The notes beneath the pieces were generated by a model. The model did not search any database and had not been told where the DNA came from. It was given only the letters and a program-made list of their open reading frames with translations. Shown here one piece after another: positions 43,980 through 64,000 of a stretch of 64,000 bases of DNA. The DNA lies in NCBI GenBank assembly GCA_017853435.1, contig JAFMJN010000001.1, positions 2,603 through 66,602 of the forward strand, given 5' to 3'. This DNA is from Planctomycetota bacterium. GTDB taxonomy: Bacteria; Planctomycetota; GCA-002687715; CAIWVZ01. The position numbers were made by a program, and so were the translations under genes. How positions within the stretch are numbered: position 1 is the stretch's first letter; each line of letters opens with the position of its first letter.

Positions 43980-43989
43980 ACGTGCGCTT

Positions 43990-44616: not shown

Positions 44617-44617
44617 C

Positions 44618-47464: not shown

Positions 47465-47470
47465 CGGGGC

Positions 47471-48316: not shown

Positions 48317-48319
48317 GGC

Positions 48320-49990: not shown

Positions 49991-52446
49991 TTGTTCCCCT
50001 CCCCGGCGGAGCGCAAACGCGACAGCCGCGCTTCCGCGTCACGGGCGGATTCCGATCCCGGATGACGTCGGATGACCGATTCGAACAGCGCGGCCGCGAC
50101 GTCGCGACGCCCCCTCGGATCACCGGCGTAGTCGATCGCGCGCAGGAGCGAGGCCTGCGCCTCGGCCGTCGCCCGGGCTCCCGACGTGGTCACGCGATCC
50201 TTTTCGAGAGTCTGCGCGAGTTGTTCGAATGCGTCTCCGACGGGAGCGCCCTTCCATTTTCCCGCAGCGTCGCGCACCGACGCGATCAACGCGCCGTCGG
50301 TCACGATCGTACGGAAGAAACGCGCGTCGTCCGCCCTCGCCTCGAAATCGCGCTGAAGATTGCGCGCGACTTCGGCAAGTCGATCGACCGCCGTACGCGC
50401 TTCGGATTCGATGCGATCCTCGAACGGGAAGCGTGCGAGTACCTGTCCGAATGCGGACAGCGCTTCTCCGAAGCGTCCGGCGCGCTCCGCTTCGCGCGCT
50501 TTCGCGAGGAGCACCCCGGCCGCTGAAAGTTCGGCTTCGAACGAGGTATCGATCGCACAGCGGAAACTCGTGGCCGCGCCTCGTTTCATCACGAGGACGG
50601 CGACTCCGCGAGCGTCGATCAGCGAGACGGGGATCGACGCGGCGCTTCCATCCATCGCGACGAAGCGCAACCGGACGCGTGCGCCCGCGTCGCCGACGAT
50701 GACGGCCGACGCCGGCGACGCGGCGAACGGTCCCCGTCGACGGACTCCGGTCTCGCCTTCAACCGTCGTCACGGTGACTTCCGCCGGACTACCGGGGACG
50801 ACCGCGGCGAAGTCCGTCTCGCCGGAGGCGCCCGCGAGTTCCCAGCCGATGGTCGCCGGTTCTCCCGTCAATGTCGCCTTGAGTCCTCCAACTGCCGGCG
50901 TCGGGCCGCCGAATCCGGGCCCCGCCGGAGCTTTCGGATCACGGAACGACCACGCTCCGAAGTCGCGGAACACGACGCGACCGGGGCGTGTCGCACGCAC
51001 GGCCCCCGAAGATCCCATCGCGACGGCGAGATTCCCCGCCTTCGTCGCGGAGTCGGGCGGCGGATCGACCGCCTCCACGGACACATCGTCGAACGCGGCT
51101 TCCCCGCGGCCTGCGAGGATGAGTCCGACGCGCACCTTCGTGTATCCGCCCGGATCGGCGAAAACACCGGAAACCAATTTGAAATCGGTCGACTCTCCCG
51201 CAGGGAGTACGTCGCGGACCGCGACCGATTCGTCGGCGTTGAGCCAGTCGAGGCACAATCCCGCGTCCGCTCCCGAATCGGCGCGGACGCGCGCCGTCAC
51301 GCGAAAAGCGCGACCGGCGGCGACATCGACGGCACCCGACGCCCCTTCGAGCCGTACGATTCCGGGCGTCGGTCCGCGTTCGGCGCGCGCCAACGTCATC
51401 GCCACGCCCGAAGGTCCGTCCACCATGCCGACCGATGTGGGATCCGCCGGATCGAGCGGTTTCCATCCTTCCGCTTCGGCCGATTCGCCCTCATCGGCCA
51501 CGGGTTCGAACGACCACCATTTTTCGGGAACGAGGTTCGACGCGACGTGCCTCGACGCACCCGCGACGGAAACATTTCGCGCCTCGTTGCGCATCCATAG
51601 GTAGCCGACGCCCCCCAGAAGCCCGACGATGACGAGAAGCATCACGATGTTGAAAACGGTGTCGGAGCGCTTCGGCGGAACCTTCACTTCGAAGCTCGCG
51701 CCACCCATGTCGAACGCGGGCGCAATCACGGTTCGCGCCTCCGGTTCGTCGGGCGCCTCTTCAAGCGCTTCCGGAGGCGGAGCGAAGTCAGATGCGGCAC
51801 CGATGCCGAACGTCGCGGTGAATGATCCGAACGTCACGACCGATCCGGAAGCGAGTTCCGCTTCCTCGACCGGTTCTCCATCGACCTTCGTTCCATTGGA
51901 GGAACCGAGGTCCTTGACCATCCAACCCGATCCCTTTTTCCGCAATTCGGCATGATCGCCCGACACGGACGGGTCGGAAAGCACGAGCGCGTTGCGCGGC
52001 TTGCGCCCCACGGTGAACGACTCACCCGAAATCTTGACGACCTCGCCGCGTCGCGAACCCGTCCCGAGAACGAGGACGACGTCTTGTTCGAGCGAGATTT
52101 CGTCCTCGCCCCAACCGTCTTCAACCGCGGGTTCGGAAGCCTCGACGCCGGCGTCGAGAAACCGTATGGAAACGGATCCGACGGAGATCACGTCGCCGTC
52201 TTGAAGTTCGAACTTCGAAACCTTGCGACCATTCACCAAGGTCCCGTTGGAGGAACCGAGATCTTCCACGAACCAAGCGGAACCGTCCTTGAAGAATCGG
52301 CAATGCTGCCGAGACGCTTCGGGGACGTCGAGGACGACGTCGTTGGTCGACGATCGGCCGGCTTTGACCTCGCTTCCGAGGGCCAATTCCCGAAAACCGG
52401 CGGCGTCCGTGATGGCAAGTTTTGGCATGGTGCGGTGCGCGTCCAC
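49987..52446 (-). CDS. Membrane protein with two N-terminal FHA domains, one TM segment and a large periplasmic domain. First gene of the pseudopilin operon.
   Basis: Two FHA cores (GRSSTNDVVLDVPEASRQHCRFF...VEDLGSSNGTLVNGRKV and GRKPRNALVLSDPSVSGDHAELR...VKDLGSSNGTKVDG). TM segment TVFNIVMLLVIVGLLGGVGYLW. An alternative start is the ATG at 52428 (MPKLAIT). 4-nt overlap with the GspL-like gene. Confidence 0.65.
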   Translation of the reverse strand: MDAHRTMPKLAITDAAGFRELALGSEVKAGRSSTNDVVLDVPEASRQHCRFFKDGSAWFVEDLGSSNGTLVNGRKVSKFELQDGDVISVGSVSIRFLDAGVEASEPAVEDGWGEDEISLEQDVVLVLGTGSRRGEVVKISGESFTVGRKPRNALVLSDPSVSGDHAELRKKGSGWMVKDLGSSNGTKVDGEPVEEAELASGSVVTFGSFTATFGIGAASDFAPPPEALEEAPDEPEARTVIAPAFDMGGASFEVKVPPKRSDTVFNIVMLLVIVGLLGGVGYLWMRNEARNVSVAGASRHVASNLVPEKWWSFEPVADEGESAEAEGWKPLDPADPTSVGMVDGPSGVAMTLARAERGPTPGIVRLEGASGAVDVAAGRAFRVTARVRADSGADAGLCLDWLNADESVAVRDVLPAGESTDFKLVSGVFADPGGYTKVRVGLILAGRGEAAFDDVSVEAVDPPPDSATKAGNLAVAMGSSGAVRATRPGRVVFRDFGAWSFRDPKAPAGPGFGGPTPAVGGLKATLTGEPATIGWELAGASGETDFAAVVPGSPAEVTVTTVEGETGVRRRGPFAASPASAVIVGDAGARVRLRFVAMDGSAASIPVSLIDARGVAVLVMKRGAATSFRCAIDTSFEAELSAAGVLLAKAREAERAGRFGEALSAFGQVLARFPFEDRIESEARTAVDRLAEVARNLQRDFEARADDARFFRTIVTDGALIASVRDAAGKWKGAPVGDAFEQLAQTLEKDRVTTSGARATAEAQASLLRAIDYAGDPRGRRDVAAALFESVIRRHPGSESARDAEARLSRLRSAGEGNK

Positions 52447-52673
52447 CCGTCGCCCGAGATTCCCCCAACCACCGACGACGATGGAAGTTGCGAAACGATG
52501 GCGACGGTCTCGAAGAGTTCCCCGATCGAGGGCCCCGGATCCCGAGGCGACTCGACTCTAAACCGACGGACATTTCGAGACCACTTCGAAGGGGGATTCG
52601 TGCGATCCGCCCCAACCCGTGATTCGCGGCTCGATTCGCGCTACGATCTGCTCGCTGCGTCGGAAGACGCACG

Positions 52674-52746
52674 GGTCCCGTAGCTCAGTGGATAGAGCAT
52701 CGGTCTTCGGAACCGCAGGTCGCCCGTTCGAATCGGGCCGGGACCG
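52674..52746 (+). tRNA. tRNA-Arg (anticodon TCG).
   Basis: Cloverleaf by hand folding. Acceptor GGTCCCG/CGGGACC, D-arm GCTC-AGTGGATA-GAGC, anticodon arm TCGGT-CTTCGGA-ACCGC (one T.C mismatch at 27:43), T-arm GCCCG-TTCGAAT-CGGGC, discriminator G. No encoded CCA. Confidence 0.75.
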
Positions 52747-52969
52747 CTGAGATTTCGCGAGGTTTCGCCGTTCCCGCACCTCCCAGTGCCGGAGTGCCGC
52801 CATCGATCTGCGGCCCTACCGGGCCGAGGAACCGATGCCCTAACCCGGTTACCCGGCACCACCGATTGCCGCCACGCCCGTTATCCCAAGCCTTCAACAA
52901 CCGATCGCAGAGTGGATCTGCCGCAAGTAGAACCGACTAGACGCGAGTCCAGCGGTCATGGCTTGGATC

Positions 52970-53497
52970 TCAGGCGATGGTGCGGACGGTGACCCCGAAT
53001 CGCCGTTCGCTGCCCGCACGCGCTCCGTTTAAACCGACCCCGGACACGACGGTCATGGCCTCGAGTGATACGTGTCCATCGGAGTGCGGGCGCGGACACT
53101 CGGCCTGCCCTCCGCTACGGCCCCCTCTACACTCTCTGCAGCCGCACTCCCCCTTCCAGCGAAGGACCCGCACCCTCCACCGATAGAGGATGGCGTCGTG
53201 GCCACCGACACCCCGCACCGACGAGTGAAGGACGGCCACTGGAGCAACGTCCTCAGCAACCAAGATGGCGGGGGCAGGACATCTCGTATCAAAGAGAACT
53301 GCTTGGGTCACGAGACGGCGAGCAGCATGACATGTCGGACGAGTTTCCGCCGTCGACGCGAGCGACTCCATCGTTCGAGTGCCTTCCAAACTGCGATTCC
53401 GATTGCGGATGAGCGGACGCACCACACGGGGGGCAGGACACCTCGTCGCAAAGAGGACCGTTTGGGTCGGGAGAAGGCGAGCGGCGTAGGGTCCCAT
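52970..53497 (-). pseudogene. Two tandem decayed copies of the Rhs N-terminal leader module (orphan Rhs 5' remnants). Probably non-functional.
   Basis: Translation contains ...ETRPTCHAARRLVTQAVLFDTRCPAPAILVAEDVAPVAVL... and ...TQTVLFATRCPAPRVV... These are homologous to the Rhs1 leader SLASTVENRPTCHAARRRVTQTVLFETRCPAPAILVAEDHAPLAVL (58500-58693). At nucleotide level 'ggcgggggcaggacacctcgtctcaaagagaacggtttgggtcac' recurs at about 53260, 53410 and 58540. Confidence 0.5.
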
Positions 53498-53502
53498 GCG
53501 CG

Positions 53503-53973
53503 CTACTGCGGTGGTGGCTGAGATCCCCGAGCCAATGGTCGAAACTGCTCACCGTTCCCAATTTGAAATCGATAGCCGACGCACACACCATCCGAAATGT
53601 GCAGACGAAAATACGAGGGGAGTAGATCGCTAGTAGGTCCTGACTTGGACGGAATGAGAACCCCGCCCATACGGTACTCAAGAATCGTAATCGGTGGTGC
53701 GGCTGACTCCCGATCAGGGGGGCCAAGGTTGTCATTGATCCACGCAGCGGTCCTTTGCAATACCCCTTCTCGTTCAACCAAGTCACCAACCATATAGGGA
53801 CGGCGATTAACGGGGCTCAGCTCATCACTGCCGCGCATCCTCCAAATATCTGGGGCAAATGGAATGAGTCGCGCAAAATCGTAGTGAGCATCATCCGCTA
53901 CCGCGAACGCGCCTAACCCCCAACCTAAGAGACCGGCAAATGCAACGGCAACAGACCATTTGACTTGAATCAT
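53503..53973 (-). CDS. Secreted hypothetical protein in the Rhs island (accessory or immunity candidate).
   Basis: The ATG at 53973 overlaps the stop of the upstream gene (ATGA). Signal peptide MIQVKWSVAVAFAGLLGWGLGAFAVA. AT-rich relative to the flanks. Confidence 0.4.
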   Translation of the reverse strand: MIQVKWSVAVAFAGLLGWGLGAFAVADDAHYDFARLIPFAPDIWRMRGSDELSPVNRRPYMVGDLVEREGVLQRTAAWINDNLGPPDRESAAPPITILEYRMGGVLIPSKSGPTSDLLPSYFRLHISDGVCVGYRFQIGNGEQFRPLARGSQPPPQ

Positions 53974-54614
53974 CGTTGGGCTTCGCTTAGCATTGCACTA
54001 GCGCCCTCGAAGAGTCCTAACTCACTACAAATGCCGTGTGTGAATTTCAGTCGCATGACAATGCGCCTTGGTTCAGGCGATGGCCAGCCACGCCCCGCGG
54101 TCGATCCCATATCGAACTCTGCGGACAGATCGCCGTGTCGACGATCAGGCGCTCCTACCCGCTCAAACACGTCTGTGGTCGACTGACCCAGAATCGATCC
54201 GTCTCGCGCCAATGCACCAACCATCGTTGCGCGAACCTGCCGCGGGTACCCGACGGTGTCGTGAGCGCTTTTCCAGACGGAGGGATCAAACGCGGACGAG
54301 TCCCAGTACTTGACTTGCTTCAAGTGCATCGACTCGGATCGCGATCCAATGAACACCAAGTACCCTAGGAATCCGACGACCCAGAGCAGTCCTCGCCATG
54401 AACGAATGAAATTGCCCGCGCGCCGTGGGTGGTGAATCAAGACCAACAATCCATACACCATAAAACCAAAGCACATGAAGCACACCAGCCCCAGTAATCC
54501 AGTTGGACTGGAATCAAAGCCTATCAGCCCGGACAAAAGCGCAAGCGGGAGCAAGAAAACCTGAACGCCACCTGCCAACAACATTCCAGTGAACCACTCA
54601 AACGAAGTCAACAT
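53970..54614 (-). CDS. Polytopic membrane protein, candidate immunity protein for the Rhs1 C-terminal toxin.
   Basis: ATG at 54614. At least four hydrophobic helices (GMLLAGGVQVFLLPLALLSGLIGF, LLGLVCFMCFGFMVYGLLVLI, LLWVVGFLGYLVFIG). Lies downstream of the Rhs1 stop in a low-GC patch. Confidence 0.4.
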   Translation of the reverse strand: MLTSFEWFTGMLLAGGVQVFLLPLALLSGLIGFDSSPTGLLGLVCFMCFGFMVYGLLVLIHHPRRAGNFIRSWRGLLWVVGFLGYLVFIGSRSESMHLKQVKYWDSSAFDPSVWKSAHDTVGYPRQVRATMVGALARDGSILGQSTTDVFERVGAPDRRHGDLSAEFDMGSTAGRGWPSPEPRRIVMRLKFTHGICSELGLFEGASAMLSEAQR

Positions 54615-54823
54615 GGTATCCCCCCTGATGACTCACCGGGGTGCCCCCGAGAGGCTCGTGCACGATAATAGTCATGACAGTTGAACCCCCGCGCAACACC
54701 CGATCCGCATCACACCGAAGCACCCGACATATCTCGAACAAACCGGCCCGAAATAGTATCTGCTCGATTGTGTCCGTGAATGGCACGAGAACCAATCAGA
54801 ACAATTTACTCGCGAACGGAGGT

Positions 54824-57800
54824 TCACCTCGGCCTCCTCCTAGTCATCTTGCCGAATGCATATCCGTATGCCCACAGGTCCAGATCGGCGCCAACAGGGA
54901 TATCCCCCGTCGGATCGCCATCCAACTCAACACCGCCGTTGAGCGGATTGCAGCCTTTGGGTCCATGCCAAATCACGGGCCCATGCGGCATCGTCTTGCC
55001 TCCCCCAGATGGCGGAGGTGTGGTTCCACGGTGCACGGGAATCCGCCGCAATGGGTACGCGAACCGAAGCATTAGTAGCCCTCGGTCGAGTTTGTCCTTG
55101 CAGCAAGTCCAGCAATCGTCAGGCGTCTTCTTGGGAAATGCACACAGAAATCCAGCCTCGTTATTAAGGACGTCCTTCCTACTCTCACCATTCCATTTCC
55201 CACCTGCCCAGTTTTCCGTGTCAAAGAGCTCATGCGAACCCATTCCAGCTCTGGCGGCCAGCCCGCCATACTGCCTCACTGCCATACACGCTCCCACACA
55301 GTGCACCATTGCGTTGAAGGCCTCATTCGGTGCGTCCGGTGGAAATCCATGCTCCCGGAGCACCCTTGACGCCGCAGCCATCAAGCTTTCAGACTGAGTT
55401 GGAGGCGGCTCAGACAGCCCCATAACGCGCCGAGCGGCTCCGGCTGAGTTCTCTCCCATGCCCTGCTCTCCAAGCGGATCCGTTGTGTCAAGTGGCATGG
55501 AATCCACATACCCATACCCATAGACCCCCGACGCATCGAGGATCGGGTCCCTCTCAAGGAACCCGCCCGTCTCCGGCCGGTACCACCTTGCACGGTAGTA
55601 GTAGAGCCCGATCTCCTGGTTCCACTCTCGTCCCGTGTACGTGAAGTCCTGCTCGCCCTGCGACATGTTCGGGCTGTAGTACGTCCCCGTTCCGTCGCAG
55701 AACTGCACCTGACCGTAGTCGGTGTACCGGTACGTCTCGAGCACACCCCCTTCGATCGTGATTGTGTTTGTCAGATTCGACACGACACACTGCACGGTCC
55801 CCAGGAAGTCGCCCTGGTAGTAGCCCTCGTAGTAGTAACTTGGGCCTGCGTTGAAGATGTCCGCCCGTGCCCAAAGGATCTGGTCCATCAGGTAGGGGCC
55901 GTACACCCTCACGAACTTCACGCGGGACTCGCTCAGGGGGCTCGACCCGGCTTGCACCACGAACTCTTCGATCGGTTGCTCACCGTCGTAGTACGTGTGC
56001 GTCCAGAACGAGCCGTTCGTGTCCTTGCGCTCGATGCGGCGGCCAAATGGGTCGTACCGGTAGCGCCAGACATGACCGCTGCCGTCGGTCGCTTCGTAGA
56101 TCCGGTTCTCCATGTCCACCTTGACCGTCGGGGACGTCTTCTGGTTCCCGTTCGTGTCAAACGTGTTGGTCTCTTGGGAGGTCTGCGTCAGCGTCGAGCC
56201 GTTCCAGTCGTACACCGTGCGGGTGCCCAACTGGTTTTGCGTGTCGAACACGTGGTCTTCTCGGCGGACGCCCGACTGCGACGGGGTGTCGTATTGGAGC
56301 GTCTTCCGGTTACCCACTTCGTCGAGCGTGAACTGACGCCGGTAGGCGAAGTCCGTTGTGGACTCGGTGGCCGACTCCACAGCCGAGTGGCTGGAGGTCG
56401 CGTACCCCACTCCGTAAAGCGTCTTCGTCAGGCGGTTGGCACCGTCGTAGTAGTACCGGTCGCCGTAGTCGAGGACTCCGCCCAGAGTGGCCCCTGTGGA
56501 GGCGTTGATGTAGTCCCGGCGTTCGAAGGTCACTCGGCCGCCCGCGTCGTACCCGCGCTTCAGGTCGACCGTCGTTGTCCGAGTCCCGTCCTTCAGCCTA
56601 TCCCATGTGAGCTGCGTCGCGCGGCCGTACGCGTCATACGCGAGCGTCTCGCGCGAGCGGTCGGATCCAAGCGTCAACTTCGTCATCCGGCGTGGGCCAG
56701 CGAAGTCCCAGTCGGCAGCGACGACGTAGGTCGGGCTTCCGGCCGTGATGTCGTCGGTTCGCTCCAGTTTGCTCACGCGGTTCAAGGAGTCGTACGTCCG
56801 CTTCACTCCGGTCAGGCCGTCGGGATACTTCACGAGGCTAAGGAGCCCGTCTCCCCCGTACGTGTACTCGACCTTCCGGTACGTGGTTCCAGACCCGCTG
56901 TCGTCCGTCGGCGTGATCCACGTCGTTTCGGATTCGAGTTTGCCTAGGGTGTTCCACGTTCGCGTCACGAGGGAATCCCGATTGTAGGCCGAGGTCAGGC
57001 GGCCGACGCCATCATACAGGAACTTCACCAGTGTGGGGCCTACCACATTCGTCGCTAGGGAATACGACTTCGTCAGCAGCAGATTTCGGCTGTCGTACGT
57101 GTACGTCGCCGAGGACCCGTTCCGGTCGGTCCTCGTCGAGACGTTATGGGCTTGGTCGTAGGTTAATGACACGGTGTCCGAGCCCGCCTCGTCGTAACTC
57201 AGGGTCAAGCGGTCAGCCTGGTCATACTCGTAGCGGCAGGACGTGTCGCCAGACCCTCGGACGTTCGTCCGGGTGACCAGGTTGTCGTTCAGGTCGTAGA
57301 CCATCACCGTATCGAGGTAAGTGGGGCTGCCGCCTCCGGTAAGGCGCCGCCTCACCTTCGTCACCCGGCCAAAATCGTCATAGAGGTTGGCAACGACGTT
57401 GCCGTTCGGGTCCGTTGCGGTCCGGACCCGGCCAAACCCGTCCACGTCGTAGGTCGTGGTCAAGGCCGTGGCGGAGCCACCCCCTCGCTCGCTGGTCGAG
57501 GTAAGGTGCCCGTCGGCATCGTAGGCGTGCTCCACGACGTAGGTCTTCGTGGTCCCGCCTTCCACCTCGTCGGCCGTGGTCTTTGTCACCCGTCCGGAAG
57601 GGTCCAACTGGCTCGTGACAGAGTTGCCGAGGGCGTCTGTCACCTTCGAGCGGCGGCCAGCCCCGTCGAAGGTGTAGGTCGTTGTGGAAGCCCCACCCCC
57701 GCACCCGCAGGAGTCGGTCGTCTGGGTCAGGCGGCCGCTCTTGTCGTAGGACATCGTGAAGGTCACGGTCCCGCTCTCGATGTCCGTCGAGAGATCGGCC

Positions 57801-58693
57801 TTCTTGGCCCATTGGGCGGTGGACGTCACGCGGTTGTCCCCGTCGTAGGACGCCCGGGACTCGATCAGTTTCGTGTTGCCGGAGTTGTACCGCTGACGCG
57901 TCACCGCGTTCGAGTTCTTATCGAACGTCGTCGTTGCGTAGTGGGATCCCGGATCCGTCATCTTCGTCGTCCGGTCGAACCCGTCGTACGCGAGCGTCGT
58001 CGCGTTCCCCTTACCGTCTTGCATCTTCGTCAGGCGGTGGTTCTGGTCGTACTCCCGGACCGACGAGGAGGCGTAGGCCGTCCCGCTCGCCACGGTCTTC
58101 GTCACTTCCAAGCCACGCATGTCGAACGTCGTGGTTTTCGAGTTGCCGCGGGGGAGCGTCACGGAGGTCACCCGGTCTTCCCTATCGCGGGCGAAGGCCC
58201 AGATGCGGTTGGACCCGTAACTCGAACCGTACTGCATCGTGATCGCCGACACCTCGTCAAGGAGGGTGTAGGACGTGAGGATGCGTTGCTCTGAGTTCGA
58301 GATGTCGGCGTTGCCGTGGTCGCGACGGGTCTCGGTCACCCGGTCGTTTAAGTCGTAGAAGTAGTCGGTCACCTTACCTGTCGGCGAGGTCACCGAGGTC
58401 GGGTAGCCAAGCGCGTTACGCGAGATCGTGGTGGTACCGCTCGTTGGGTCGGTGATGGAGGTGACGTTGTATGCGCTGCGAACGCGCGCTGACGAGGAGA
58501 GGACTGCCAATGGGGCATGGTCCTCAGCGACCAAGATGGCGGGGGCAGGACACCTCGTCTCAAAGAGAACGGTTTGGGTCACCCGACGACGAGCAGCATG
58601 ACATGTCGGACGATTCTCCACCGTCGATGCGAGCGAATTGAGTGAGCGAATGGCCTTCGAACCAAGATTTCGGGCGCGGACGAGCGATTGCAT
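54824..58693 (-). CDS. Rhs/YD-repeat protein (Rhs1, about 1289 aa) with a short unique N-terminal leader, a full RHS core and a variable C-terminal toxin domain.
   Basis: Many YD repeats (YEYDQADRLT, YTYDSRNLL, YRYDPFGRR). Core end YYYRARWYRPETGGFLERDPI...DPLGEQG (DPxG cleavage-type motif) followed by a 230-aa unique tail. The ATG at 58693 with a GAGG SD is preferred. The ORF-track N-terminus (to 58834) overlaps the upstream membrane-protein gene in another frame. Confidence 0.75.
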   Translation of the reverse strand: MQSLVRARNLGSKAIRSLNSLASTVENRPTCHAARRRVTQTVLFETRCPAPAILVAEDHAPLAVLSSSARVRSAYNVTSITDPTSGTTTISRNALGYPTSVTSPTGKVTDYFYDLNDRVTETRRDHGNADISNSEQRILTSYTLLDEVSAITMQYGSSYGSNRIWAFARDREDRVTSVTLPRGNSKTTTFDMRGLEVTKTVASGTAYASSSVREYDQNHRLTKMQDGKGNATTLAYDGFDRTTKMTDPGSHYATTTFDKNSNAVTRQRYNSGNTKLIESRASYDGDNRVTSTAQWAKKADLSTDIESGTVTFTMSYDKSGRLTQTTDSCGCGGGASTTTYTFDGAGRRSKVTDALGNSVTSQLDPSGRVTKTTADEVEGGTTKTYVVEHAYDADGHLTSTSERGGGSATALTTTYDVDGFGRVRTATDPNGNVVANLYDDFGRVTKVRRRLTGGGSPTYLDTVMVYDLNDNLVTRTNVRGSGDTSCRYEYDQADRLTLSYDEAGSDTVSLTYDQAHNVSTRTDRNGSSATYTYDSRNLLLTKSYSLATNVVGPTLVKFLYDGVGRLTSAYNRDSLVTRTWNTLGKLESETTWITPTDDSGSGTTYRKVEYTYGGDGLLSLVKYPDGLTGVKRTYDSLNRVSKLERTDDITAGSPTYVVAADWDFAGPRRMTKLTLGSDRSRETLAYDAYGRATQLTWDRLKDGTRTTTVDLKRGYDAGGRVTFERRDYINASTGATLGGVLDYGDRYYYDGANRLTKTLYGVGYATSSHSAVESATESTTDFAYRRQFTLDEVGNRKTLQYDTPSQSGVRREDHVFDTQNQLGTRTVYDWNGSTLTQTSQETNTFDTNGNQKTSPTVKVDMENRIYEATDGSGHVWRYRYDPFGRRIERKDTNGSFWTHTYYDGEQPIEEFVVQAGSSPLSESRVKFVRVYGPYLMDQILWARADIFNAGPSYYYEGYYQGDFLGTVQCVVSNLTNTITIEGGVLETYRYTDYGQVQFCDGTGTYYSPNMSQGEQDFTYTGREWNQEIGLYYYRARWYRPETGGFLERDPILDASGVYGYGYVDSMPLDTTDPLGEQGMGENSAGAARRVMGLSEPPPTQSESLMAAASRVLREHGFPPDAPNEAFNAMVHCVGACMAVRQYGGLAARAGMGSHELFDTENWAGGKWNGESRKDVLNNEAGFLCAFPKKTPDDCWTCCKDKLDRGLLMLRFAYPLRRIPVHRGTTPPPSGGGKTMPHGPVIWHGPKGCNPLNGGVELDGDPTGDIPVGADLDLWAYGYAFGKMTRRRPR
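55502..58469. repeat. Copy 1 (Rhs1 core) of a 2,968-bp near-identical direct repeat. Its partner is at 60331-63298, period 4,829 bp.
   Basis: Nucleotide identity starts at 'atccacatacccatac' (55502 / 60331) and ends at 'ggtgacgttg' (58469 / 63298). Only one mismatch was noticed (ttgggtcgg vs ttggatcgg near 58446 / 63275). The ORF track shows identical ORFs offset by 4829. Confidence 0.9.
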
Positions 58694-58706
58694 CGCACGG
58701 GCCTCA

Positions 58707-59477
58707 TCACACGGTATCAACGTCTTTGTAGATAAATAATGGAAGTCGAACAAAACCAATCCAAATAAACTTAAGCACGTCAACTCGAACTGCGGCTTCC
58801 CGGGATGTCGGGTCCCGAAAAAGAACCGCATCAAAAATAATTCCGCGCCCGAAGAACGCTCTTAACGCTGAGCACTGTGGATGATCTGCGCTCCTATGAG
58901 TTTGGCGTTTCCAACTGAGTGCCTCGCGAATTCTTCGGCGGAGTGAATCCGGAGGCATCGACTCTTGTGGCGTGCCTGTGAACGTTTGGCCAACAAGCGT
59001 AGCCACATCATCGAAATTAATGTCAACCAACACGCCGCGTTCCATGGTCCAACACTTCTCACTACCAACCGACGAGCTCGAATGCAACGGCGCGCCCGAC
59101 AACCGTCCAAGGCGAAATGTACTCCAAACAGAATAGCCCCAAGCGACCAGTAGAACCGTAACCAGTTCCAACGACGGATGCGCCCAAGTAAAGTGCCAAC
59201 CCCCGAATTGCAACACGGCCGCTCCAAAATCACGAGTCAAAGCACACGCAAACAGAAGGGACTTCGAATCGAACAAAATAATTCCACGCCGCAGACTAAG
59301 GCTGATCCCGCCGTGAAACAGGACTAAGAACAAAGGGACAGACATTGATCGAGCAGCAACTAAATCCAGTAGCACCGTGCAGCTCATGCACGCAGCAAAC
59401 CAAACCGCCATGAGCAGTATCGCAGATGCGACCCTTGGCGGTGTTGAAGGGTGTTTGTAGACAGAAATTTTACTCAT
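58707..59477 (-). CDS. Polytopic membrane protein with a C-terminal soluble domain, candidate immunity protein for the Rhs2 C-terminal toxin.
   Basis: ATG at 59477, 58 bp downstream of the Rhs2 stop. At least four N-terminal TM helices. AT-rich (about 50% GC) relative to the flanks. The stop lies 13 nt before the Rhs1 ATG. Confidence 0.45.
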   Translation of the reverse strand: MSKISVYKHPSTPPRVASAILLMAVWFAACMSCTVLLDLVAARSMSVPLFLVLFHGGISLSLRRGIILFDSKSLLFACALTRDFGAAVLQFGGWHFTWAHPSLELVTVLLVAWGYSVWSTFRLGRLSGAPLHSSSSVGSEKCWTMERGVLVDINFDDVATLVGQTFTGTPQESMPPDSLRRRIREALSWKRQTHRSADHPQCSALRAFFGRGIIFDAVLFRDPTSREAAVRVDVLKFIWIGFVRLPLFIYKDVDTV

Positions 59478-59535
59478 ACAAAGAGGTGGATCCGTCGGCT
59501 AATGATGTTCTACCCTGTACACAACAATCAGTACT

Positions 59536-62500
59536 TCAATGCCCTAACTTCTTGGGCCTTGAATCTGCCGGGATAACCGGACGACTCCCCGGGGCTGGCT
59601 TTACGTCAACGGGACTGTGTTCGACTTCTGGAATTAGAGGCTTGCGCTTCCTGCAGCACTTTTCGGGGGCGTACCCATCTTTCGCCTTCTTCAGATTTTT
59701 TGCCGCCTCGGATTGTGCGGCTGCATACTTCTCCAGCGTTGCACGGGCATCGGAGCTCGACAGTACTTCGTAGTGGTCGTCGCTGCCCATGAATCTAGTC
59801 CAACCATCCACTACGCCAACCGAGCCACCGGCCACTTCCGCTGCTCCCAGTGCGACTCCACCAACACTGATTTCAACAGCGACTCCAACGCCTATTATCG
59901 TGCCCGCCCCACCCGTCGTGGCAGTACTACCTACTACGACCACAATGCTGACAGCCACAGAGCCCAGTGCTACTCCAGCACCTTTCACAAGGACACCAGC
60001 GCCCGCGGCCATCTCAGCCATCCCTAGAAGAATTTGCCGTTCGGTACCTTTAACAAATCGGCCCTCGTCAAGCAGCCGCTCAAGAGGTCCTGCCTTCTCG
60101 CGCCACTTGTCCCATGCGTCGTCAACGGCGTCAAGGCAACTTCTTTCGAATTCACTGCAGCATTCCGTGTCAAAACTCCCCCCATTCGCCTCACACACCT
60201 TCTTCGCATCGACACACGTTGGTCGACAAGCAAATGCCCTAAGTGAACTTCTCGACTCTTTGTTCTTCTGATAGGGAGTCGGTCTTAGTGCTTGAAATCC
60301 AGCAGGGTCGATCTGGTCTGTCGGCATCCCATCCACATACCCATACCCATAGACCCCCGACGCATCGAGGATCGGGTCCCTCTCAAGGAACCCGCCCGTC
60401 TCCGGCCGGTACCACCTTGCACGGTAGTAGTAGAGCCCGATCTCCTGGTTCCACTCTCGTCCCGTGTACGTGAAGTCCTGCTCGCCCTGCGACATGTTCG
60501 GGCTGTAGTACGTCCCCGTTCCGTCGCAGAACTGCACCTGACCGTAGTCGGTGTACCGGTACGTCTCGAGCACACCCCCTTCGATCGTGATTGTGTTTGT
60601 CAGATTCGACACGACACACTGCACGGTCCCCAGGAAGTCGCCCTGGTAGTAGCCCTCGTAGTAGTAACTTGGGCCTGCGTTGAAGATGTCCGCCCGTGCC
60701 CAAAGGATCTGGTCCATCAGGTAGGGGCCGTACACCCTCACGAACTTCACGCGGGACTCGCTCAGGGGGCTCGACCCGGCTTGCACCACGAACTCTTCGA
60801 TCGGTTGCTCACCGTCGTAGTACGTGTGCGTCCAGAACGAGCCGTTCGTGTCCTTGCGCTCGATGCGGCGGCCAAATGGGTCGTACCGGTAGCGCCAGAC
60901 ATGACCGCTGCCGTCGGTCGCTTCGTAGATCCGGTTCTCCATGTCCACCTTGACCGTCGGGGACGTCTTCTGGTTCCCGTTCGTGTCAAACGTGTTGGTC
61001 TCTTGGGAGGTCTGCGTCAGCGTCGAGCCGTTCCAGTCGTACACCGTGCGGGTGCCCAACTGGTTTTGCGTGTCGAACACGTGGTCTTCTCGGCGGACGC
61101 CCGACTGCGACGGGGTGTCGTATTGGAGCGTCTTCCGGTTACCCACTTCGTCGAGCGTGAACTGACGCCGGTAGGCGAAGTCCGTTGTGGACTCGGTGGC
61201 CGACTCCACAGCCGAGTGGCTGGAGGTCGCGTACCCCACTCCGTAAAGCGTCTTCGTCAGGCGGTTGGCACCGTCGTAGTAGTACCGGTCGCCGTAGTCG
61301 AGGACTCCGCCCAGAGTGGCCCCTGTGGAGGCGTTGATGTAGTCCCGGCGTTCGAAGGTCACTCGGCCGCCCGCGTCGTACCCGCGCTTCAGGTCGACCG
61401 TCGTTGTCCGAGTCCCGTCCTTCAGCCTATCCCATGTGAGCTGCGTCGCGCGGCCGTACGCGTCATACGCGAGCGTCTCGCGCGAGCGGTCGGATCCAAG
61501 CGTCAACTTCGTCATCCGGCGTGGGCCAGCGAAGTCCCAGTCGGCAGCGACGACGTAGGTCGGGCTTCCGGCCGTGATGTCGTCGGTTCGCTCCAGTTTG
61601 CTCACGCGGTTCAAGGAGTCGTACGTCCGCTTCACTCCGGTCAGGCCGTCGGGATACTTCACGAGGCTAAGGAGCCCGTCTCCCCCGTACGTGTACTCGA
61701 CCTTCCGGTACGTGGTTCCAGACCCGCTGTCGTCCGTCGGCGTGATCCACGTCGTTTCGGATTCGAGTTTGCCTAGGGTGTTCCACGTTCGCGTCACGAG
61801 GGAATCCCGATTGTAGGCCGAGGTCAGGCGGCCGACGCCATCATACAGGAACTTCACCAGTGTGGGGCCTACCACATTCGTCGCTAGGGAATACGACTTC
61901 GTCAGCAGCAGATTTCGGCTGTCGTACGTGTACGTCGCCGAGGACCCGTTCCGGTCGGTCCTCGTCGAGACGTTATGGGCTTGGTCGTAGGTTAATGACA
62001 CGGTGTCCGAGCCCGCCTCGTCGTAACTCAGGGTCAAGCGGTCAGCCTGGTCATACTCGTAGCGGCAGGACGTGTCGCCAGACCCTCGGACGTTCGTCCG
62101 GGTGACCAGGTTGTCGTTCAGGTCGTAGACCATCACCGTATCGAGGTAAGTGGGGCTGCCGCCTCCGGTAAGGCGCCGCCTCACCTTCGTCACCCGGCCA
62201 AAATCGTCATAGAGGTTGGCAACGACGTTGCCGTTCGGGTCCGTTGCGGTCCGGACCCGGCCAAACCCGTCCACGTCGTAGGTCGTGGTCAAGGCCGTGG
62301 CGGAGCCACCCCCTCGCTCGCTGGTCGAGGTAAGGTGCCCGTCGGCATCGTAGGCGTGCTCCACGACGTAGGTCTTCGTGGTCCCGCCTTCCACCTCGTC
62401 GGCCGTGGTCTTTGTCACCCGTCCGGAAGGGTCCAACTGGCTCGTGACAGAGTTGCCGAGGGCGTCTGTCACCTTCGAGCGGCGGCCAGCCCCGTCGAAG

Positions 62501-64000
62501 GTGTAGGTCGTTGTGGAAGCCCCACCCCCGCACCCGCAGGAGTCGGTCGTCTGGGTCAGGCGGCCGCTCTTGTCGTAGGACATCGTGAAGGTCACGGTCC
62601 CGCTCTCGATGTCCGTCGAGAGATCGGCCTTCTTGGCCCATTGGGCGGTGGACGTCACGCGGTTGTCCCCGTCGTAGGACGCCCGGGACTCGATCAGTTT
62701 CGTGTTGCCGGAGTTGTACCGCTGACGCGTCACCGCGTTCGAGTTCTTATCGAACGTCGTCGTTGCGTAGTGGGATCCCGGATCCGTCATCTTCGTCGTC
62801 CGGTCGAACCCGTCGTACGCGAGCGTCGTCGCGTTCCCCTTACCGTCTTGCATCTTCGTCAGGCGGTGGTTCTGGTCGTACTCCCGGACCGACGAGGAGG
62901 CGTAGGCCGTCCCGCTCGCCACGGTCTTCGTCACTTCCAAGCCACGCATGTCGAACGTCGTGGTTTTCGAGTTGCCGCGGGGGAGCGTCACGGAGGTCAC
63001 CCGGTCTTCCCTATCGCGGGCGAAGGCCCAGATGCGGTTGGACCCGTAACTCGAACCGTACTGCATCGTGATCGCCGACACCTCGTCAAGGAGGGTGTAG
63101 GACGTGAGGATGCGTTGCTCTGAGTTCGAGATGTCGGCGTTGCCGTGGTCGCGACGGGTCTCGGTCACCCGGTCGTTTAAGTCGTAGAAGTAGTCGGTCA
63201 CCTTACCTGTCGGCGAGGTCACCGAGGTCGGGTAGCCAAGCGCGTTACGCGAGATCGTGGTGGTACCGCTCGTTGGATCGGTGATGGAGGTGACGTTGCC
63301 GTACTGGTCTCTTGCAAACGTCGTCTCGATGGCAAGGCCGGACGGATCCACGGTCACCTTCGAGACCTGGCCGCCGCCAGTGTACGTAAATGCCACCACC
63401 TTCGACTCTGGATCGGTGACGGTGATCGGGCGGCTCAGGGAGTCATACGAGATGCTGTACCCCGACGCGCCAGTTTCTGGAGACTTCTGGCTGGTGACGT
63501 TGCCGTTGCCGTCGCGCGTGATCTCGAAGTCTCGGCCGTTTGGATCGATGACCTTCGTGAGGAGTTTCCAATCAGACGTGGTCTGGTAGACGTACTCCGT
63601 CACAAGATGGTCGCTCCCAGATCGCATCGTCGCGATGCTGGTTGCAGAGAGACCCGATGCTGTGGATTTGATGGATGCCGTGAGTAGCCCACCGGAGTAC
63701 TGGTAGAGCATCCCGTTGCCTTCAGGTGCAACGGATTTCGTGAGAAGTCCCGTCGATGAGTCCCAGTAGCACGTCGTGTCTTCGAAGGATTCGGGGGATC
63801 GCTCCTGCTTGATCTTCGTGATCGCATAGTTCGAGTCAAACTCGAAAATGCGACGCGCACCTTCCCGATCGATCTCCGTCGTCTTGTTCATCGCGTAGGT
63901 CACGACGTATTTCTGCGTCGACGAGTCGCCAAAAATCTGCTTCGTAACGCGCCCCGATCCGTCGTACTCCATCTGCAAGTACGCAGCCCCGCTCGACGCT
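59536..64000 (-). CDS. Rhs/YD-repeat protein (Rhs2), 5'-truncated by the window edge. Its C-terminal toxin domain contains a glycine-zipper hydrophobic segment.
   Basis: The ORF is open to the window edge with YD repeats throughout. The core is identical to Rhs1 over 2,968 nt. C-terminal tail after DPAGFQ: Cys-rich region, then GAGVLVKGAGVALGSVAVSIVVVVGSTATTGGAGTIIGVGVAVEISVGGVALGAAEVAGG. Confidence 0.75.
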   Translation of the reverse strand, partial: ASSGAAYLQMEYDGSGRVTKQIFGDSSTQKYVVTYAMNKTTEIDREGARRIFEFDSNYAITKIKQERSPESFEDTTCYWDSSTGLLTKSVAPEGNGMLYQYSGGLLTASIKSTASGLSATSIATMRSGSDHLVTEYVYQTTSDWKLLTKVIDPNGRDFEITRDGNGNVTSQKSPETGASGYSISYDSLSRPITVTDPESKVVAFTYTGGGQVSKVTVDPSGLAIETTFARDQYGNVTSITDPTSGTTTISRNALGYPTSVTSPTGKVTDYFYDLNDRVTETRRDHGNADISNSEQRILTSYTLLDEVSAITMQYGSSYGSNRIWAFARDREDRVTSVTLPRGNSKTTTFDMRGLEVTKTVASGTAYASSSVREYDQNHRLTKMQDGKGNATTLAYDGFDRTTKMTDPGSHYATTTFDKNSNAVTRQRYNSGNTKLIESRASYDGDNRVTSTAQWAKKADLSTDIESGTVTFTMSYDKSGRLTQTTDSCGCGGGASTTTYTFDGAGRRSKVTDALGNSVTSQLDPSGRVTKTTADEVEGGTTKTYVVEHAYDADGHLTSTSERGGGSATALTTTYDVDGFGRVRTATDPNGNVVANLYDDFGRVTKVRRRLTGGGSPTYLDTVMVYDLNDNLVTRTNVRGSGDTSCRYEYDQADRLTLSYDEAGSDTVSLTYDQAHNVSTRTDRNGSSATYTYDSRNLLLTKSYSLATNVVGPTLVKFLYDGVGRLTSAYNRDSLVTRTWNTLGKLESETTWITPTDDSGSGTTYRKVEYTYGGDGLLSLVKYPDGLTGVKRTYDSLNRVSKLERTDDITAGSPTYVVAADWDFAGPRRMTKLTLGSDRSRETLAYDAYGRATQLTWDRLKDGTRTTTVDLKRGYDAGGRVTFERRDYINASTGATLGGVLDYGDRYYYDGANRLTKTLYGVGYATSSHSAVESATESTTDFAYRRQFTLDEVGNRKTLQYDTPSQSGVRREDHVFDTQNQLGTRTVYDWNGSTLTQTSQETNTFDTNGNQKTSPTVKVDMENRIYEATDGSGHVWRYRYDPFGRRIERKDTNGSFWTHTYYDGEQPIEEFVVQAGSSPLSESRVKFVRVYGPYLMDQILWARADIFNAGPSYYYEGYYQGDFLGTVQCVVSNLTNTITIEGGVLETYRYTDYGQVQFCDGTGTYYSPNMSQGEQDFTYTGREWNQEIGLYYYRARWYRPETGGFLERDPILDASGVYGYGYVDGMPTDQIDPAGFQALRPTPYQKNKESRSSLRAFACRPTCVDAKKVCEANGGSFDTECCSEFERSCLDAVDDAWDKWREKAGPLERLLDEGRFVKGTERQILLGMAEMAAGAGVLVKGAGVALGSVAVSIVVVVGSTATTGGAGTIIGVGVAVEISVGGVALGAAEVAGGSVGVVDGWTRFMGSDDHYEVLSSSDARATLEKYAAAQSEAAKNLKKAKDGYAPEKCCRKRKPLIPEVEHSPVDVKPAPGSRPVIPADSRPKKLGH
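60331..63298. repeat. Copy 2 (Rhs2 core) of the 2,968-bp direct repeat.
   Basis: See copy 1. Confidence 0.9.

What the first reader, a model, noticed from the sequence alone, without database searches (positions are those of the whole stretch)
52674..58693. Decayed Rhs 'leader' modules next to tRNA-Arg point to a tRNA-associated island with serial orphan-module turnover
A ~160-nt element encodes SLASTVENRPTCHAARRRVTQTVLFETRCPAPAILVAED, the Rhs1 N-terminal leader, immediately after the stop of the preceding membrane-protein gene. The same element recurs twice in tandem at 52970-53497. That copy lies immediately after the stop of the 53503-53973 gene, lacks any Rhs core and has diverged in sequence. 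The repeated unit therefore seems to be [immunity-like gene]-[leader-Rhs]. The tRNA-Arg sits 230 bp away, with low-GC patches and repeats beyond it. This fits a genomic island integrated at, or growing from, the tRNA, with successive Rhs modules added and partly deleted. The leader is too short and too cysteine/arginine-rich to assign a function (secretion signal, PAAR-type adaptor docking?).
Basis: seen in the sequence. Interest (0 to 1): 0.55.

Follow-up and report, generated by a model that had tools for sequence, protein, structure and literature searches.

The report
Recombinase-gene relics, not Rhs leaders
The repeated "Rhs leader" is the opposite-strand reading of leftover 3' ends of a serine-recombinase gene, attachment site included, so it marks where mobile elements once joined toxin modules and is not a secretion signal.

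Summary
The repeat is real. A 57-nt core occurs three times (58541-58597, 53270-53326, 53429-53485), with none expected by chance.

It is not an Rhs leader:
- The full-length Rhs has a different N-terminus.
- Half of the related copies carry stop codons in the leader frame.
- No protein in billions of sequences starts with it, apart from two tiny ORFs.

The element has three parts, L (~110 nt), K (66 nt) and T (~66-80 nt). On the opposite strand, K and T encode the last 20-46 codons of a large serine recombinase (LSR): ...SSATKMAGAGHLVSKRTVWVTRRRAA*.

Intact relatives of this recombinase overlap the 3' end of an initiator-type tRNA-Met gene. The best-conserved "leader" residues (TRCPAPAILVAED) spell the 16-nt att core shared with that tRNA.

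In a 99%-identical strain variant, the same immunity gene plus L-K is followed by a recombinase C-terminus with an open frame instead of the orphan Rhs. Related copies also follow non-Rhs genes.

Synteny with a sister genome ends about 100 nt past tRNA-Arg, so the region is variable. No tRNA-Arg repeat or integrase was found.

Verdict: these are decayed junctions of recombinase-borne elements carrying toxin cargo. This is moderately interesting and a new variant of known kinds.

The parts
52674..52747 (+). tRNA-Arg (anticodon TCG); a backbone gene at the edge of the variable region
   Evidence: ARAGORN; Rfam tRNA 66.6 bits; conserved in L011 and L012
52748..52848 (.). About 100 nt of conserved backbone downstream of tRNA-Arg; synteny with related genomes ends here
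   Evidence: blastn L011 9595-22454 = window 52848-39992 at 84%; L012 198-367 = window 52842-52674; three-way alignment
52849..53185 (.). Unique spacer with no recognisable homology. It makes up most of the 175-aa ORF 52970-53497, which is probably not a gene.
   Evidence: No blastn, blastx or nhmmer match; no Pfam hit for the ORF; + strand recombinase frame interrupted by stops
53186..53264 (+). T(A): decayed remnant of the recombinase C-terminal coding region (...RTATGATSSATK); read on the - strand as 'LVAEDVAPVAVLHSSVRG'
   Evidence: Local alignment to the recombinase 3' ends of L023/L019/L024 beats all but 0-1 of 1000 shuffles; translation
53265..53330 (+). K(A): recombinase tail ORF MAGAGHLVSKRTAWVTRRRAA* including the att core (CCTGCCCCCGCCA on the - strand, 53278-53266)
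53331..53431 (+). L(A): about 100-nt conserved segment lying 3' of the recombinase stop codon; role unknown
   Evidence: nhmmer and alignment; no codon-position bias
53429..53505 (+). Copy B: recombinase tail remnant GAGHLVAKRTVWVGRRRAA* (stop 53487-53489) cut at the att core, plus about 16 nt; it abuts the stop of the 156-aa gene
   Evidence: closest to the L019/L021 copy at 88%
53503..54614 (-). Two small cargo genes (156 aa with an N-terminal hydrophobic segment; 214 aa that looks membrane-embedded by eye). They are candidate immunity or accessory genes of the orphan toxin.
   Evidence: ORFs; no Pfam hit; always collinear in 8 other assemblies
54824..58469 (-). Orphan Rhs: core fragment 55494-58469 is 99.87% identical to the full-length gene (60323-63298); its own C-terminal toxin tip is 54824-55493
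   Evidence: blastn, 4 mismatches in 2976 nt; ORF
58470..58535 (+). T(C): decayed recombinase C-terminal remnant (LYALRTRADEERTANGAWSSATK), joined to the Rhs core at AACGTCAC
   Evidence: 75% identical to T(A); collinear with the recombinase C-terminus; not significant on its own
58536..58601 (+). K(C): recombinase tail ORF MAGAGHLVSKRTVWVTRRRAA* with the att core (58549-58537 on the - strand); read on the - strand as 'HAARRRVTQTVLFETRCPAPA'
   Evidence: the same tail ends the called recombinase protein P0005
58602..58712 (+). L(C): conserved 3' flank; on the - strand it supplies the accidental ATG (58693) of the orphan ORF
58707..59477 (-). 256-aa gene after the full-length Rhs (candidate immunity protein of toxin 1)
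   Evidence: ORF; no Pfam hit; found in 39 assembly blocks
59536..64000 (-). Full-length Rhs gene (runs off the window; 1896 aa in L001) with DUF6531 and RHS repeats

Best explanation
The 'leader' is an opposite-strand ('shadow') reading of the 3'-terminal remnant of a large serine recombinase (LSR) gene together with about 110 nt of its 3' flank.

Anatomy, read on the + strand:
- T encodes the recombinase residues before ...SSATK.
- K encodes the last 21 codons, MAGAGHLVSKRTVWVTRRRAA*.
- L lies after the stop codon.
- The junction of T and K holds the recombinase's attachment-site core. It is identical over 16 nt (TCCTGCCCCCGCCATC) to the 3' end of an initiator-type tRNA-Met gene.

Shown from related loci: in intact relatives the recombinase gene runs into that tRNA, and integration replaces the K-encoded tail by a tRNA-antisense tail (...AGAGFEPATSGL*). 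The K-core-T arrangement seen in the window is the unsplit, attP-like form.

Inferred history: recombinase-bearing integrative elements carrying toxin/immunity and other cargo were once joined next to the preceding module (imm1 convergent with the LSR gene). The recombinase genes were then mostly deleted. At copy C the stump became fused to an Rhs core at a short microhomology. This produced an orphan Rhs ORF whose first 75 codons are accidental. Copies A and B are two further stumps of different subfamilies at the end of the array.

The relics most likely do nothing as protein. They persist as scars and as stretches of homology at which modules can be exchanged.
For: Link to a recombinase gene:
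- L010 is 99.2% identical to window 58535-59007 (imm1 + L + K). It then continues into an open recombinase C-terminus, blastx E=2e-20 against the L019 recombinase.
- L030 links window 58516-58581 (89%) to the 3' end of the L023 recombinase gene (95% over 144 nt).
- The called recombinase protein P0005 ends ...LMAGARHLLSKRTLRVTGCQAA, so it is encoded through K.

Coding signal on the opposite strand:
- All seven full or partial K copies keep the opposite-strand frame open and share the same stop position.
- A versus C shows 7 nt changes, 1 aa change in the recombinase frame and 3 in the leader frame.
- Over 15 pairs there are 215 nt differences, giving 75 aa differences in the recombinase frame against 95 in the leader frame.
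- Third-codon-position excess occurs only in K (5 of 7, p=0.045), not in L or T. Third positions of the two frames coincide.

tRNA-Met link:
- Full-length relatives P0006/L023 and P0009/L028, and also P0007, overlap a tRNA-Met(CAT) gene. 22 of 31 more distant homologues end in AGAGFEPAT[S/F]GL.
- The same recombinase (100% identical) abuts the tRNA in L019/L020 but abuts L-K in L024-L027.

Homology of T: T(A) matches the recombinase 3' region better than all but 0-1 of 1000 shuffles.

Against a leader:
- The full-length Rhs lacks it.
- The leader frame has stops in L011, L030 and L008 copies.
- Searches of 5.8 and 1.84 billion proteins return only two small ORFs.
- No Rfam family, folding signal or covariation was found.
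Against: - No recombinase gene survives in the window. The link therefore rests on homology with other loci, most of them from other metagenomes and related lineages.
- T(C) alone is not significantly similar to the recombinase 3' end. Its assignment relies on its 75% identity to T(A) and on collinearity.
- The role and sharp outer boundary of L are unexplained.
- The orphan ORF has an ATG 13 nt after the upstream stop with a GAGG before it, and gene callers start it there. Translation of the shadow peptide is therefore not excluded.
- Serine-recombinase att sites normally show weak dyad symmetry. An exact-seed search found none in the window copies.
- The crossover point and the other flank of the tRNA-Met site were not determined.
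Confidence: 0.8

Rival explanations
1. The sites are not dead scars. K-core(-T) copies are still used as attachment or landing sites by recombinases encoded elsewhere in the genome or on incoming elements. Toxin/immunity cassettes would then be inserted, excised or swapped by site-specific recombination, in an integron-like or rAID-like way.
For: - The att core and K are the best-conserved parts of every copy.
- A population variant (L010) has a recombinase gene exactly at copy C's K.
- The same recombinase is found joined either to the tRNA or to L-K in different samples.
- Several different cargo sets end in L-K.
Against: - L010 departs from the window about 17 nt before the core, and its left half-site differs at 4 of 15 positions. 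This fits homologous exchange or divergence between copies, not a clean site-specific event.
- Six other assemblies of copy C and eight of copies A/B show no structural variation.
- The nearest recombinases seen are themselves truncated or frameshifted.
- Copy B has lost the right half of the core.
Confidence: 0.2
2. The element is a real N-terminal leader. It would provide translation start and a short Cys/Arg-rich peptide that lets orphan Rhs fragments be expressed or routed on their own.
For: - The frame is open from ATG 58693, with a GAGG 9-12 nt upstream and only 13 nt after the preceding stop.
- Gene callers use this start.
- The peptide core is well conserved between copies A and C.
Against: - It is absent from the full-length Rhs.
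- Copies A and B precede no Rhs.
- The leader frame is broken by stops in at least five related copies.
- Amino-acid change is higher in this frame than in the opposite-strand frame.
- L and T show no coding signature.
- There are no homologous protein N-termini in 1.84 billion representatives.
- An Rhs lacking its first ~640 residues lacks the N-terminal region with the DUF6531 domain and the start of the repeats. Known orphans need fusion to the main gene to be expressed (PMC3967940).
Confidence: 0.06
3. The region is a classical genomic island integrated into tRNA-Arg by its own (tyrosine) integrase, and the repeats are incidental passengers.
For: - Synteny breaks about 100 nt past the 3' end of tRNA-Arg in two related genomes.
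- G+C drops from 0.665 to 0.60.
- The tRNA's 3' end faces the variable DNA.
Against: - No repeat of the tRNA-Arg 3' end (21-mer, up to 3 mismatches) occurs in the window or in 6.2 kb beyond it.
- There is no integrase next to the tRNA.
- About 100 nt downstream of the tRNA is still conserved backbone, so the junction is not inside the tRNA.
- The only tRNA-derived sequence in the region matches tRNA-Met.
Confidence: 0.1
4. The element is a generic interspersed intergenic repeat (REP- or MITE-like) or a structured RNA of this lineage, unrelated to recombinases.
For: It occurs after several unrelated genes and in mosaic, partly tandem arrangements.
Against: - An nhmmer profile finds no copy in the other 52 kb of the window, in 12 kb of syntenic L011, or in L012.
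- An exact-pattern scan of 185,579 reference genomes found none, and the metagenome scan found only this lineage.
- No terminal inverted repeats, Rfam hit, folding z-score or covariation were found.
- Protein-level homology of T' to the recombinase C-terminus is strong.
Confidence: 0.04

Closest known systems
Orphan rhs-CT/rhsI modules downstream of a main rhs gene (e.g. Salmonella Typhimurium LT2 STM0291/STM0292; PMC3967940)
   Same: - A full-length Rhs is followed by its immunity-like gene.
- Next comes a fragment that repeats part of the core (here 2976 nt at 99.87%) and carries a different C-terminal tip with its own small downstream genes.
- The shared core offers a substrate for homologous fusion of the orphan tip to the main gene.
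   Different: - The orphan here is very long (about 1215 Rhs codons) and carries an accidental 75-codon N-terminal extension derived from a recombinase pseudogene.
- Module joints are marked by serine-recombinase gene stumps with an att core.
- The lineage is a freshwater planctomycete.
- No secretion system context was identified.
Large-serine-recombinase prophages and integrative elements, including one reported in tRNA-Met (phage vB_PamS_Pami6 of Paracoccus; PMC6536676), and tandem arrays of islands at tRNA genes (Islander, PMC4383910; SGI1 tandem integration, PMC2297512)
   Same: - The recombinase has Resolvase + Recombinase + Zn-ribbon domains and lies at the edge of the element, against a tRNA-Met(CAT) gene.
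- A short core is shared between the element and the tRNA 3' end.
- Junctions of the P-core-P' type are what tandem or circular forms give.
   Different: - The att core lies inside the recombinase's own 3' end, so integration swaps its last 10-25 codons. To my knowledge this has been described for archaeal SSV-type tyrosine integrases, not for serine recombinases.
- In the window only 20-46-codon stumps remain, and they are not next to tRNA-Met.
- tRNA targets are typical of tyrosine integrases, not serine ones (PMC4383910).
[quoted passage not shown]
   Same: Arrays of orphan toxin-related or immunity genes are linked to a site-specific recombinase and separated by conserved intergenic sequence motifs.
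   Different: - rAID uses a tyrosine recombinase at the head of a co-oriented array of short, low-G+C immunity genes.
- Here the recombinase is a serine type, is present only as relics, and the conserved 'intergenic motif' is the recombinase gene's own 3' end.
- The modules here include large Rhs fragments.

Membership tests
Orphan Rhs toxin module (applies to ORF 54824-58469, not to the repeat) | Fragment shares conserved core sequence with a neighbouring full-length rhs gene | tested here: met
   55494-58469 versus 60323-63298: 99.87% over 2976 nt
Orphan Rhs toxin module | Lacks the N-terminal region of the full-length protein | tested here: met
   Homology starts at about residue 642 of the 1896-aa protein (NVTSITDP...). 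DUF6531 is called on the whole full-length product only; the missing N-terminal ~640 residues are the part the orphan lacks
Orphan Rhs toxin module | Distinct C-terminal toxin tip after the conserved end of the core, followed by a cognate immunity gene | tested here: inconclusive
   The tips diverge after ...YGYGYVD(G/S)MP and each is followed by small genes. No Pfam family matches the tips or the small genes. Toxicity and immunity were not testable.
N-terminal secretion leader or adaptor-binding domain of Rhs proteins | Present at the N-terminus of full-length, deliverable family members | tested here: not met
   The full-length Rhs begins MINLSWKVLAPLSAVAAGAL.... Searches of 5.8 and 1.84 billion proteins return only an 87-aa and a 58-aa ORF.
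N-terminal secretion leader or adaptor-binding domain of Rhs proteins | Reading frame conserved and under purifying selection | tested here: not met
   Stops in the leader frame in L011, L030 and L008 copies. More amino-acid change than in the opposite-strand frame, 95 against 75. No codon bias in L or T.
Large serine recombinase gene (3' remnant) with attachment site | Sequence homology to the C-terminus of proteins with Resolvase/Recombinase/Zn_ribbon_recom domains | tested here: met
   - K encodes the same tail as the called recombinase P0005.
- T' copies give blastx E=2e-20 and 1e-15.
- T(A) beats all but 0-1 of 1000 shuffles.
- T(C) is supported only through T(A) and collinearity.
Large serine recombinase gene (3' remnant) with attachment site | Core shared with the chromosomal target used by intact family members | tested here: met
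   TCCTGCCCCCGCCATC is shared with the 3' end of tRNA-Met(CAT) that abuts the recombinase in L019, L023 and L028. The rest of L-K shows no similarity to the tRNA body.
Large serine recombinase gene (3' remnant) with attachment site | Intact catalytic recombinase adjacent to the site | tested here: not met
   There is no recombinase gene in the window (tblastn). The copies here are therefore relics, not a working system.
Large serine recombinase gene (3' remnant) with attachment site | Imperfect dyad symmetry around a central crossover dinucleotide; recombination activity | tested here: inconclusive
   An exact 6-nt-seed inverted-repeat search found none in the window copies. The crossover position was not determined. 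Activity is not testable here.
tRNA-anchored genomic island at tRNA-Arg | Variable DNA begins at the 3' side of the tRNA when related genomes are compared | tested here: met
   Synteny ends at window ~52848, 100 nt past the tRNA
tRNA-anchored genomic island at tRNA-Arg | Direct repeat of the tRNA 3' end at the far border, and an integrase next to the tRNA | tested here: not met
   No match to the last 21 nt (up to 3 mismatches) in the window or in L009. No integrase was seen. The far border lies beyond the available sequence, so the repeat test is incomplete.
Structured non-coding RNA or interspersed repeat (REP/MITE) | Conserved secondary structure or terminal inverted repeats, with many dispersed copies | tested here: not met
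   - Rfam: only the tRNA.
- Folding z-scores 0.20 and 0.50.
- Alifold -10 and -8.5 kcal/mol with no favourable covariation term.
- No further copies in about 75 kb of flanking or syntenic DNA.

The most novel reading that the evidence does not exclude
Serine-recombinase integrative elements may be the vehicles that deliver Rhs toxin-immunity cassettes in this planctomycete lineage. Each would arrive with its cargo ending in L-K and dock at a core embedded in a recombinase gene's own 3' end or at the tRNA-Met 3' end. Orphan arrays would thus be built by site-specific rather than homologous recombination. The recombinase's C-terminal tail would be swapped between a K-encoded and a tRNA-encoded version according to integration state, which could act as a built-in switch of directionality. 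The K sites in the window would still be usable landing pads.
Probability: 0.2. Interest if true: 0.65.

Novelty: new variant of a known kind. Interest (0 to 1): 0.35.

Why it matters
- It removes a false lead. A conserved Cys/Arg-rich 'leader' on an orphan toxin is explained as the shadow of a recombinase pseudogene. This is a trap in high-G+C genomes, where opposite-strand frames stay open.
- It gives a concrete picture of how an orphan toxin array can be punctuated. The joints are stumps of serine-recombinase genes carrying an att core. This points to integrative elements, and not only homologous recombination in the Rhs core, as a source of new toxin/immunity modules in a little-studied phylum.
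- The recombinase family itself may deserve a look. Its attachment core lies inside its own coding end, it targets initiator-type tRNA-Met, and its last codons change on integration.

Tried and rejected
- **Structured RNA.** The Rfam E-value scan of 52000-60000 found only the tRNA. Single-sequence folds of both strands gave z-scores of 0.20 and 0.50. Consensus folds of six copies on both strands had weak energy and no useful covariation.
- **Promoter or terminator.** There were 0 promoter-like sites and fewer terminator-like sites than in shuffles, none of them in the element.
- **Coding leader.** Codon-position counts of A-versus-C differences were 24/27/28 overall. The apparent third-position excess is confined to K and is explained by the opposite-strand frame.
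- **attR of tRNA-Arg.** No repeat was found.
- **Pseudo-tRNA origin of L-K.** There is no similarity to the tRNA-Met body or its upstream region beyond the last 16 nt.
- **Continuation of the recombinase ORF into 52849-53185, or L as recombinase-derived.** Nothing significant was found.
- **Pfam on the toxin tips, the small genes and the 175-aa ORF.** No hits.
- **Exact-pattern scans.** Reference genomes gave 0 hits, and metagenomes gave only the same lineage. The element is therefore narrow in distribution, or the pattern was too strict.
- **attR in L028.** A search for a long direct repeat of the tRNA-Met end within 10 kb found nothing clear.
- **Dyad symmetry of the core.** Not detected with exact seeds.
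- **'Mini-element' idea.** I considered a roughly 300-nt T'-L-K unit suggested by L019, L021 and L030. I left it open, because copy C's L abuts the immunity gene directly.

Full report
**Layout.** All genes of the region lie on the - strand. In order they are:
- a full-length Rhs (59536 to beyond 64000; 1896 aa in locus L001, with DUF6531 and RHS repeats);
- a 256-aa gene (58707-59477);
- repeat copy C;
- an orphan Rhs (54824-58469);
- two small genes (53970-54614 and 53503-53973);
- repeat copies B and A;
- about 440 nt of spacer and backbone;
- tRNA-Arg(TCG) at 52674-52747 on the + strand.

The orphan repeats 2976 nt of the main gene's core at 99.87% identity (55494-58469 versus 60323-63298) and then has its own C-terminal tip. 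This is the classical main-plus-orphan Rhs arrangement (PMC3967940).

A 251-nt stretch (53191-53441) is 75% identical to 58462-58712. A 57-nt core occurs three times, with no match in 100 shuffles.

An alignment of all copies I could collect divides the element into three parts:
- L, about 100-110 nt;
- K, 57-66 nt, the best conserved part;
- T, about 66-80 nt.

Copy C is L+K+T, copy A is L+K+T, and copy B is K plus about 30 nt.

**It is not an Rhs leader.**
- The full-length Rhs starts MINLSWKVLAPLSAV..., with no trace of the peptide.
- A word-indexed search of 5.8 billion proteins and an exhaustive HMMER search of 1.84 billion representatives returned only an 87-aa and a 58-aa ORF, plus two chance repeat proteins.
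- In the leader frame, related copies in L011, L030 and L008 carry stop codons.
- No Rfam family, folding signal, covariation, promoter or terminator accounts for the element.

**What it is.** The 58-aa ORF (P0002) led to locus L019.
- L019 begins with the 3' two-thirds of a tRNA-Met(CAT) gene.
- A large serine recombinase (LSR) gene follows at once, convergently. An element copy lies 4.7 kb further on.
- The end of K plus the start of T (TCCTGCCCCCGCCATC) is identical to the tRNA's 3' end.
- The sequence after it is homologous to the recombinase's last ~45 codons on the opposite strand, with blastx E=1e-15 to 2e-20 for the T' copies of L019, L021 and L010.

Full-length relatives do the same. 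P0006 in L023 (615 aa, Resolvase + Recombinase + Zn ribbon) and P0009 in an NCBI MAG (L028) overlap a complete tRNA-Met gene. That gene has initiator hallmarks: a 1:72 mismatch and three G-C pairs in the anticodon stem. This reading rests on my knowledge of initiator tRNAs. Of 31 more distant homologues, 22 end in ...AGAGFEPAT[S/F]GL, which is the opposite-strand reading of that tRNA.

**K is the recombinase's alternative tail.** On the + strand the window copies read as follows:
- copy C: ...SSATKMAGAGHLVSKRTVWVTRRRAA*
- copy A: ...SSATKMAGAGHLVSKRTAWVTRRRAA*
- copy B: GAGHLVAKRTVWVGRRRAA*

The called recombinase protein P0005 (L024) ends ...LMAGARHLLSKRTLRVTGCQAA, so it is encoded straight through K. 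All copies share the same stop position.

For the same nucleotide differences, the recombinase frame changes fewer amino acids than the leader frame:
- A versus C: 1 change against 3.
- Over 15 pairs: 75 changes against 95.

The excess of third-position changes is confined to K (5 of 7). Third positions of the two frames coincide, which explains why the leader frame looked coding.

L-K without its last 16 nt has no similarity to the tRNA body. K-core-T is therefore the unsplit, attP-like form of the recombinase's 3' end and not a pseudo-tRNA.

T(A) matches the recombinase 3' region better than all but 0-1 of 1000 shuffles. T(C) is not significant alone, but it is 75% identical to T(A) and collinear with the recombinase C-terminus.

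**Links to the window itself.**
- L010, from another sample, is 99.2% identical to window 58535-59007 (imm1, L, K). It then continues into an open recombinase C-terminus instead of T(C) and the orphan Rhs.
- L030 joins a K-T stretch 89% identical to window 58516-58581 to a recombinase 3' end 95% identical to that of L023.
- The same recombinase (100% identical) abuts the tRNA in L019/L020 and abuts L-K in L024-L027.
- The Rhs core in copy C begins at AACGTCAC. That position aligns with the opposite strand of the recombinase's 'VTF' codons. I infer a deletion through microhomology that removed the recombinase gene and fused its stump to an Rhs core. This step is inference only.

**Contexts.** The element also follows non-Rhs genes:
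- 570-726-aa CarboxypepD_reg-like proteins (L008, L011, L019, L021, L024);
- a methyltransferase/DUF6259 cluster (L024).

It is often interrupted by an rve-family IS.

It is not a genome-wide repeat in the sequence available. An nhmmer profile finds no copy in the other 52 kb of the window, in the syntenic 12 kb of L011, or in L012. Strict pattern scans found nothing in 185,579 reference genomes and only this lineage in metagenomes.

**The tRNA-Arg question.**
- A sister planctomycete MAG (L011) is syntenic at 84% up to window 52848, about 100 nt past the tRNA. It then carries a different Rhs and its own element copies.
- L012 agrees on the boundary.
- The region is therefore variable and lower in G+C (0.60 against 0.665).
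- However, there is no repeat of the tRNA-Arg 3' end in the window or in 6.2 kb beyond it. There is no integrase at the tRNA, and the junction lies outside the tRNA.
- Eight other assemblies of copies A/B and six of copy C are collinear with the window, so the arrangement is stable in most sampled populations.

**Comparison with known systems.**
- The Rhs part is an ordinary main-plus-orphan locus (PMC3967940).
- Serine-recombinase elements at tRNA-Met have at least one precedent (PMC6536676), although tRNA targets are typical of tyrosine integrases (PMC4383910).
- Arrays of orphan toxin or immunity genes tied to a recombinase and separated by conserved motifs are known as rAID in Bacteroidales (PMC12247911). 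Those use a tyrosine recombinase and a different layout.

What is new here is the combination. Recombinase-gene stumps with an att core serve as module joints in a planctomycete Rhs array. The recombinase family has its att core inside its own coding end, so integration swaps its tail.

**Verdict.** The leader interpretation is rejected. The idea of a variable region with module turnover is kept in modified form. How the array was built is inferred, not shown, and the role of L is unexplained.

Noticed in passing
L023 1026-2906; L028 10001-11934; L019 1-1379; proteins P0005-P0040: A broad family of large serine recombinases has its 3' end overlapping an initiator-type tRNA-Met gene. 22 of 31 distant homologues end in AGAGFEPAT[S/F]GL*, and the stop codon is the opposite-strand reading of the anticodon loop. 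Four others end in a different tail (...AGAR...AA*) like the K tail, so integration seems to swap the last 10-25 codons.
   Followed up: partly
L008 35-1090; L011 2926-3188; L030 2730-2861 and 6423-7518; L009 1-444: An rve-family IS and roughly 260-nt internally deleted remnants of it interrupt L copies. One copy also sits just upstream of the glycosyltransferase-Rhs operon beyond the window end, and contigs tend to break there.
   Followed up: partly
L001 1-4255 (beyond window end, upstream of the Rhs start): The full-length Rhs start codon overlaps the stop of a TMEM260-like glycosyltransferase gene (808 aa), which is preceded by a GT2 gene. The Rhs may be co-transcribed with glycosyltransferases, an unusual partner set. 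No T6SS, PAAR or VgrG genes were seen nearby.
   Followed up: no
L008 1341-3053; L011 983-2716; L019 2298-4478: Paralogous 570-726-aa proteins recur as cargo directly upstream of element copies. They have an N-terminal membrane helix and faint CarboxypepD_reg similarity, and are only about 35% identical to each other. Their function is unknown; they may be another polymorphic family.
   Followed up: no
window 53429-53489 versus 53265-53330: Copies B and A belong to different subfamilies of K. B has the stop TAG and the 'CTACGCCGC' type, and is 88% identical to the L019 copy. A has the stop TGA and the 'TCATGCTGC' type. The 'tandem' pair is therefore two relics of different origin placed side by side.
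   Followed up: yes
window 40000-52446: The backbone next to the tRNA encodes an 819-aa double-FHA protein, a PilM/FtsA-like ATPase, a TPR protein and N_methyl (prepilin-type) proteins. This pilus- or secretion-like cluster is conserved in both related MAGs.
   Followed up: no
L012 (CAMARR010000015.1): This contig is titled Candidatus Kuenenia stuttgartiensis, yet it is syntenic with this window at about 70% nt identity over 10.9 kb. The bin label looks doubtful. The contig ends about 290 nt past tRNA-Arg, as expected if repeats break the assembly there.
   Followed up: no
L031 11865-12964: Next to a frameshifted recombinase, a K copy is followed by AT-rich DNA quite unlike the G+C-rich rest of the locus. 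This could be a chimeric contig or a very different cargo.
   Followed up: no
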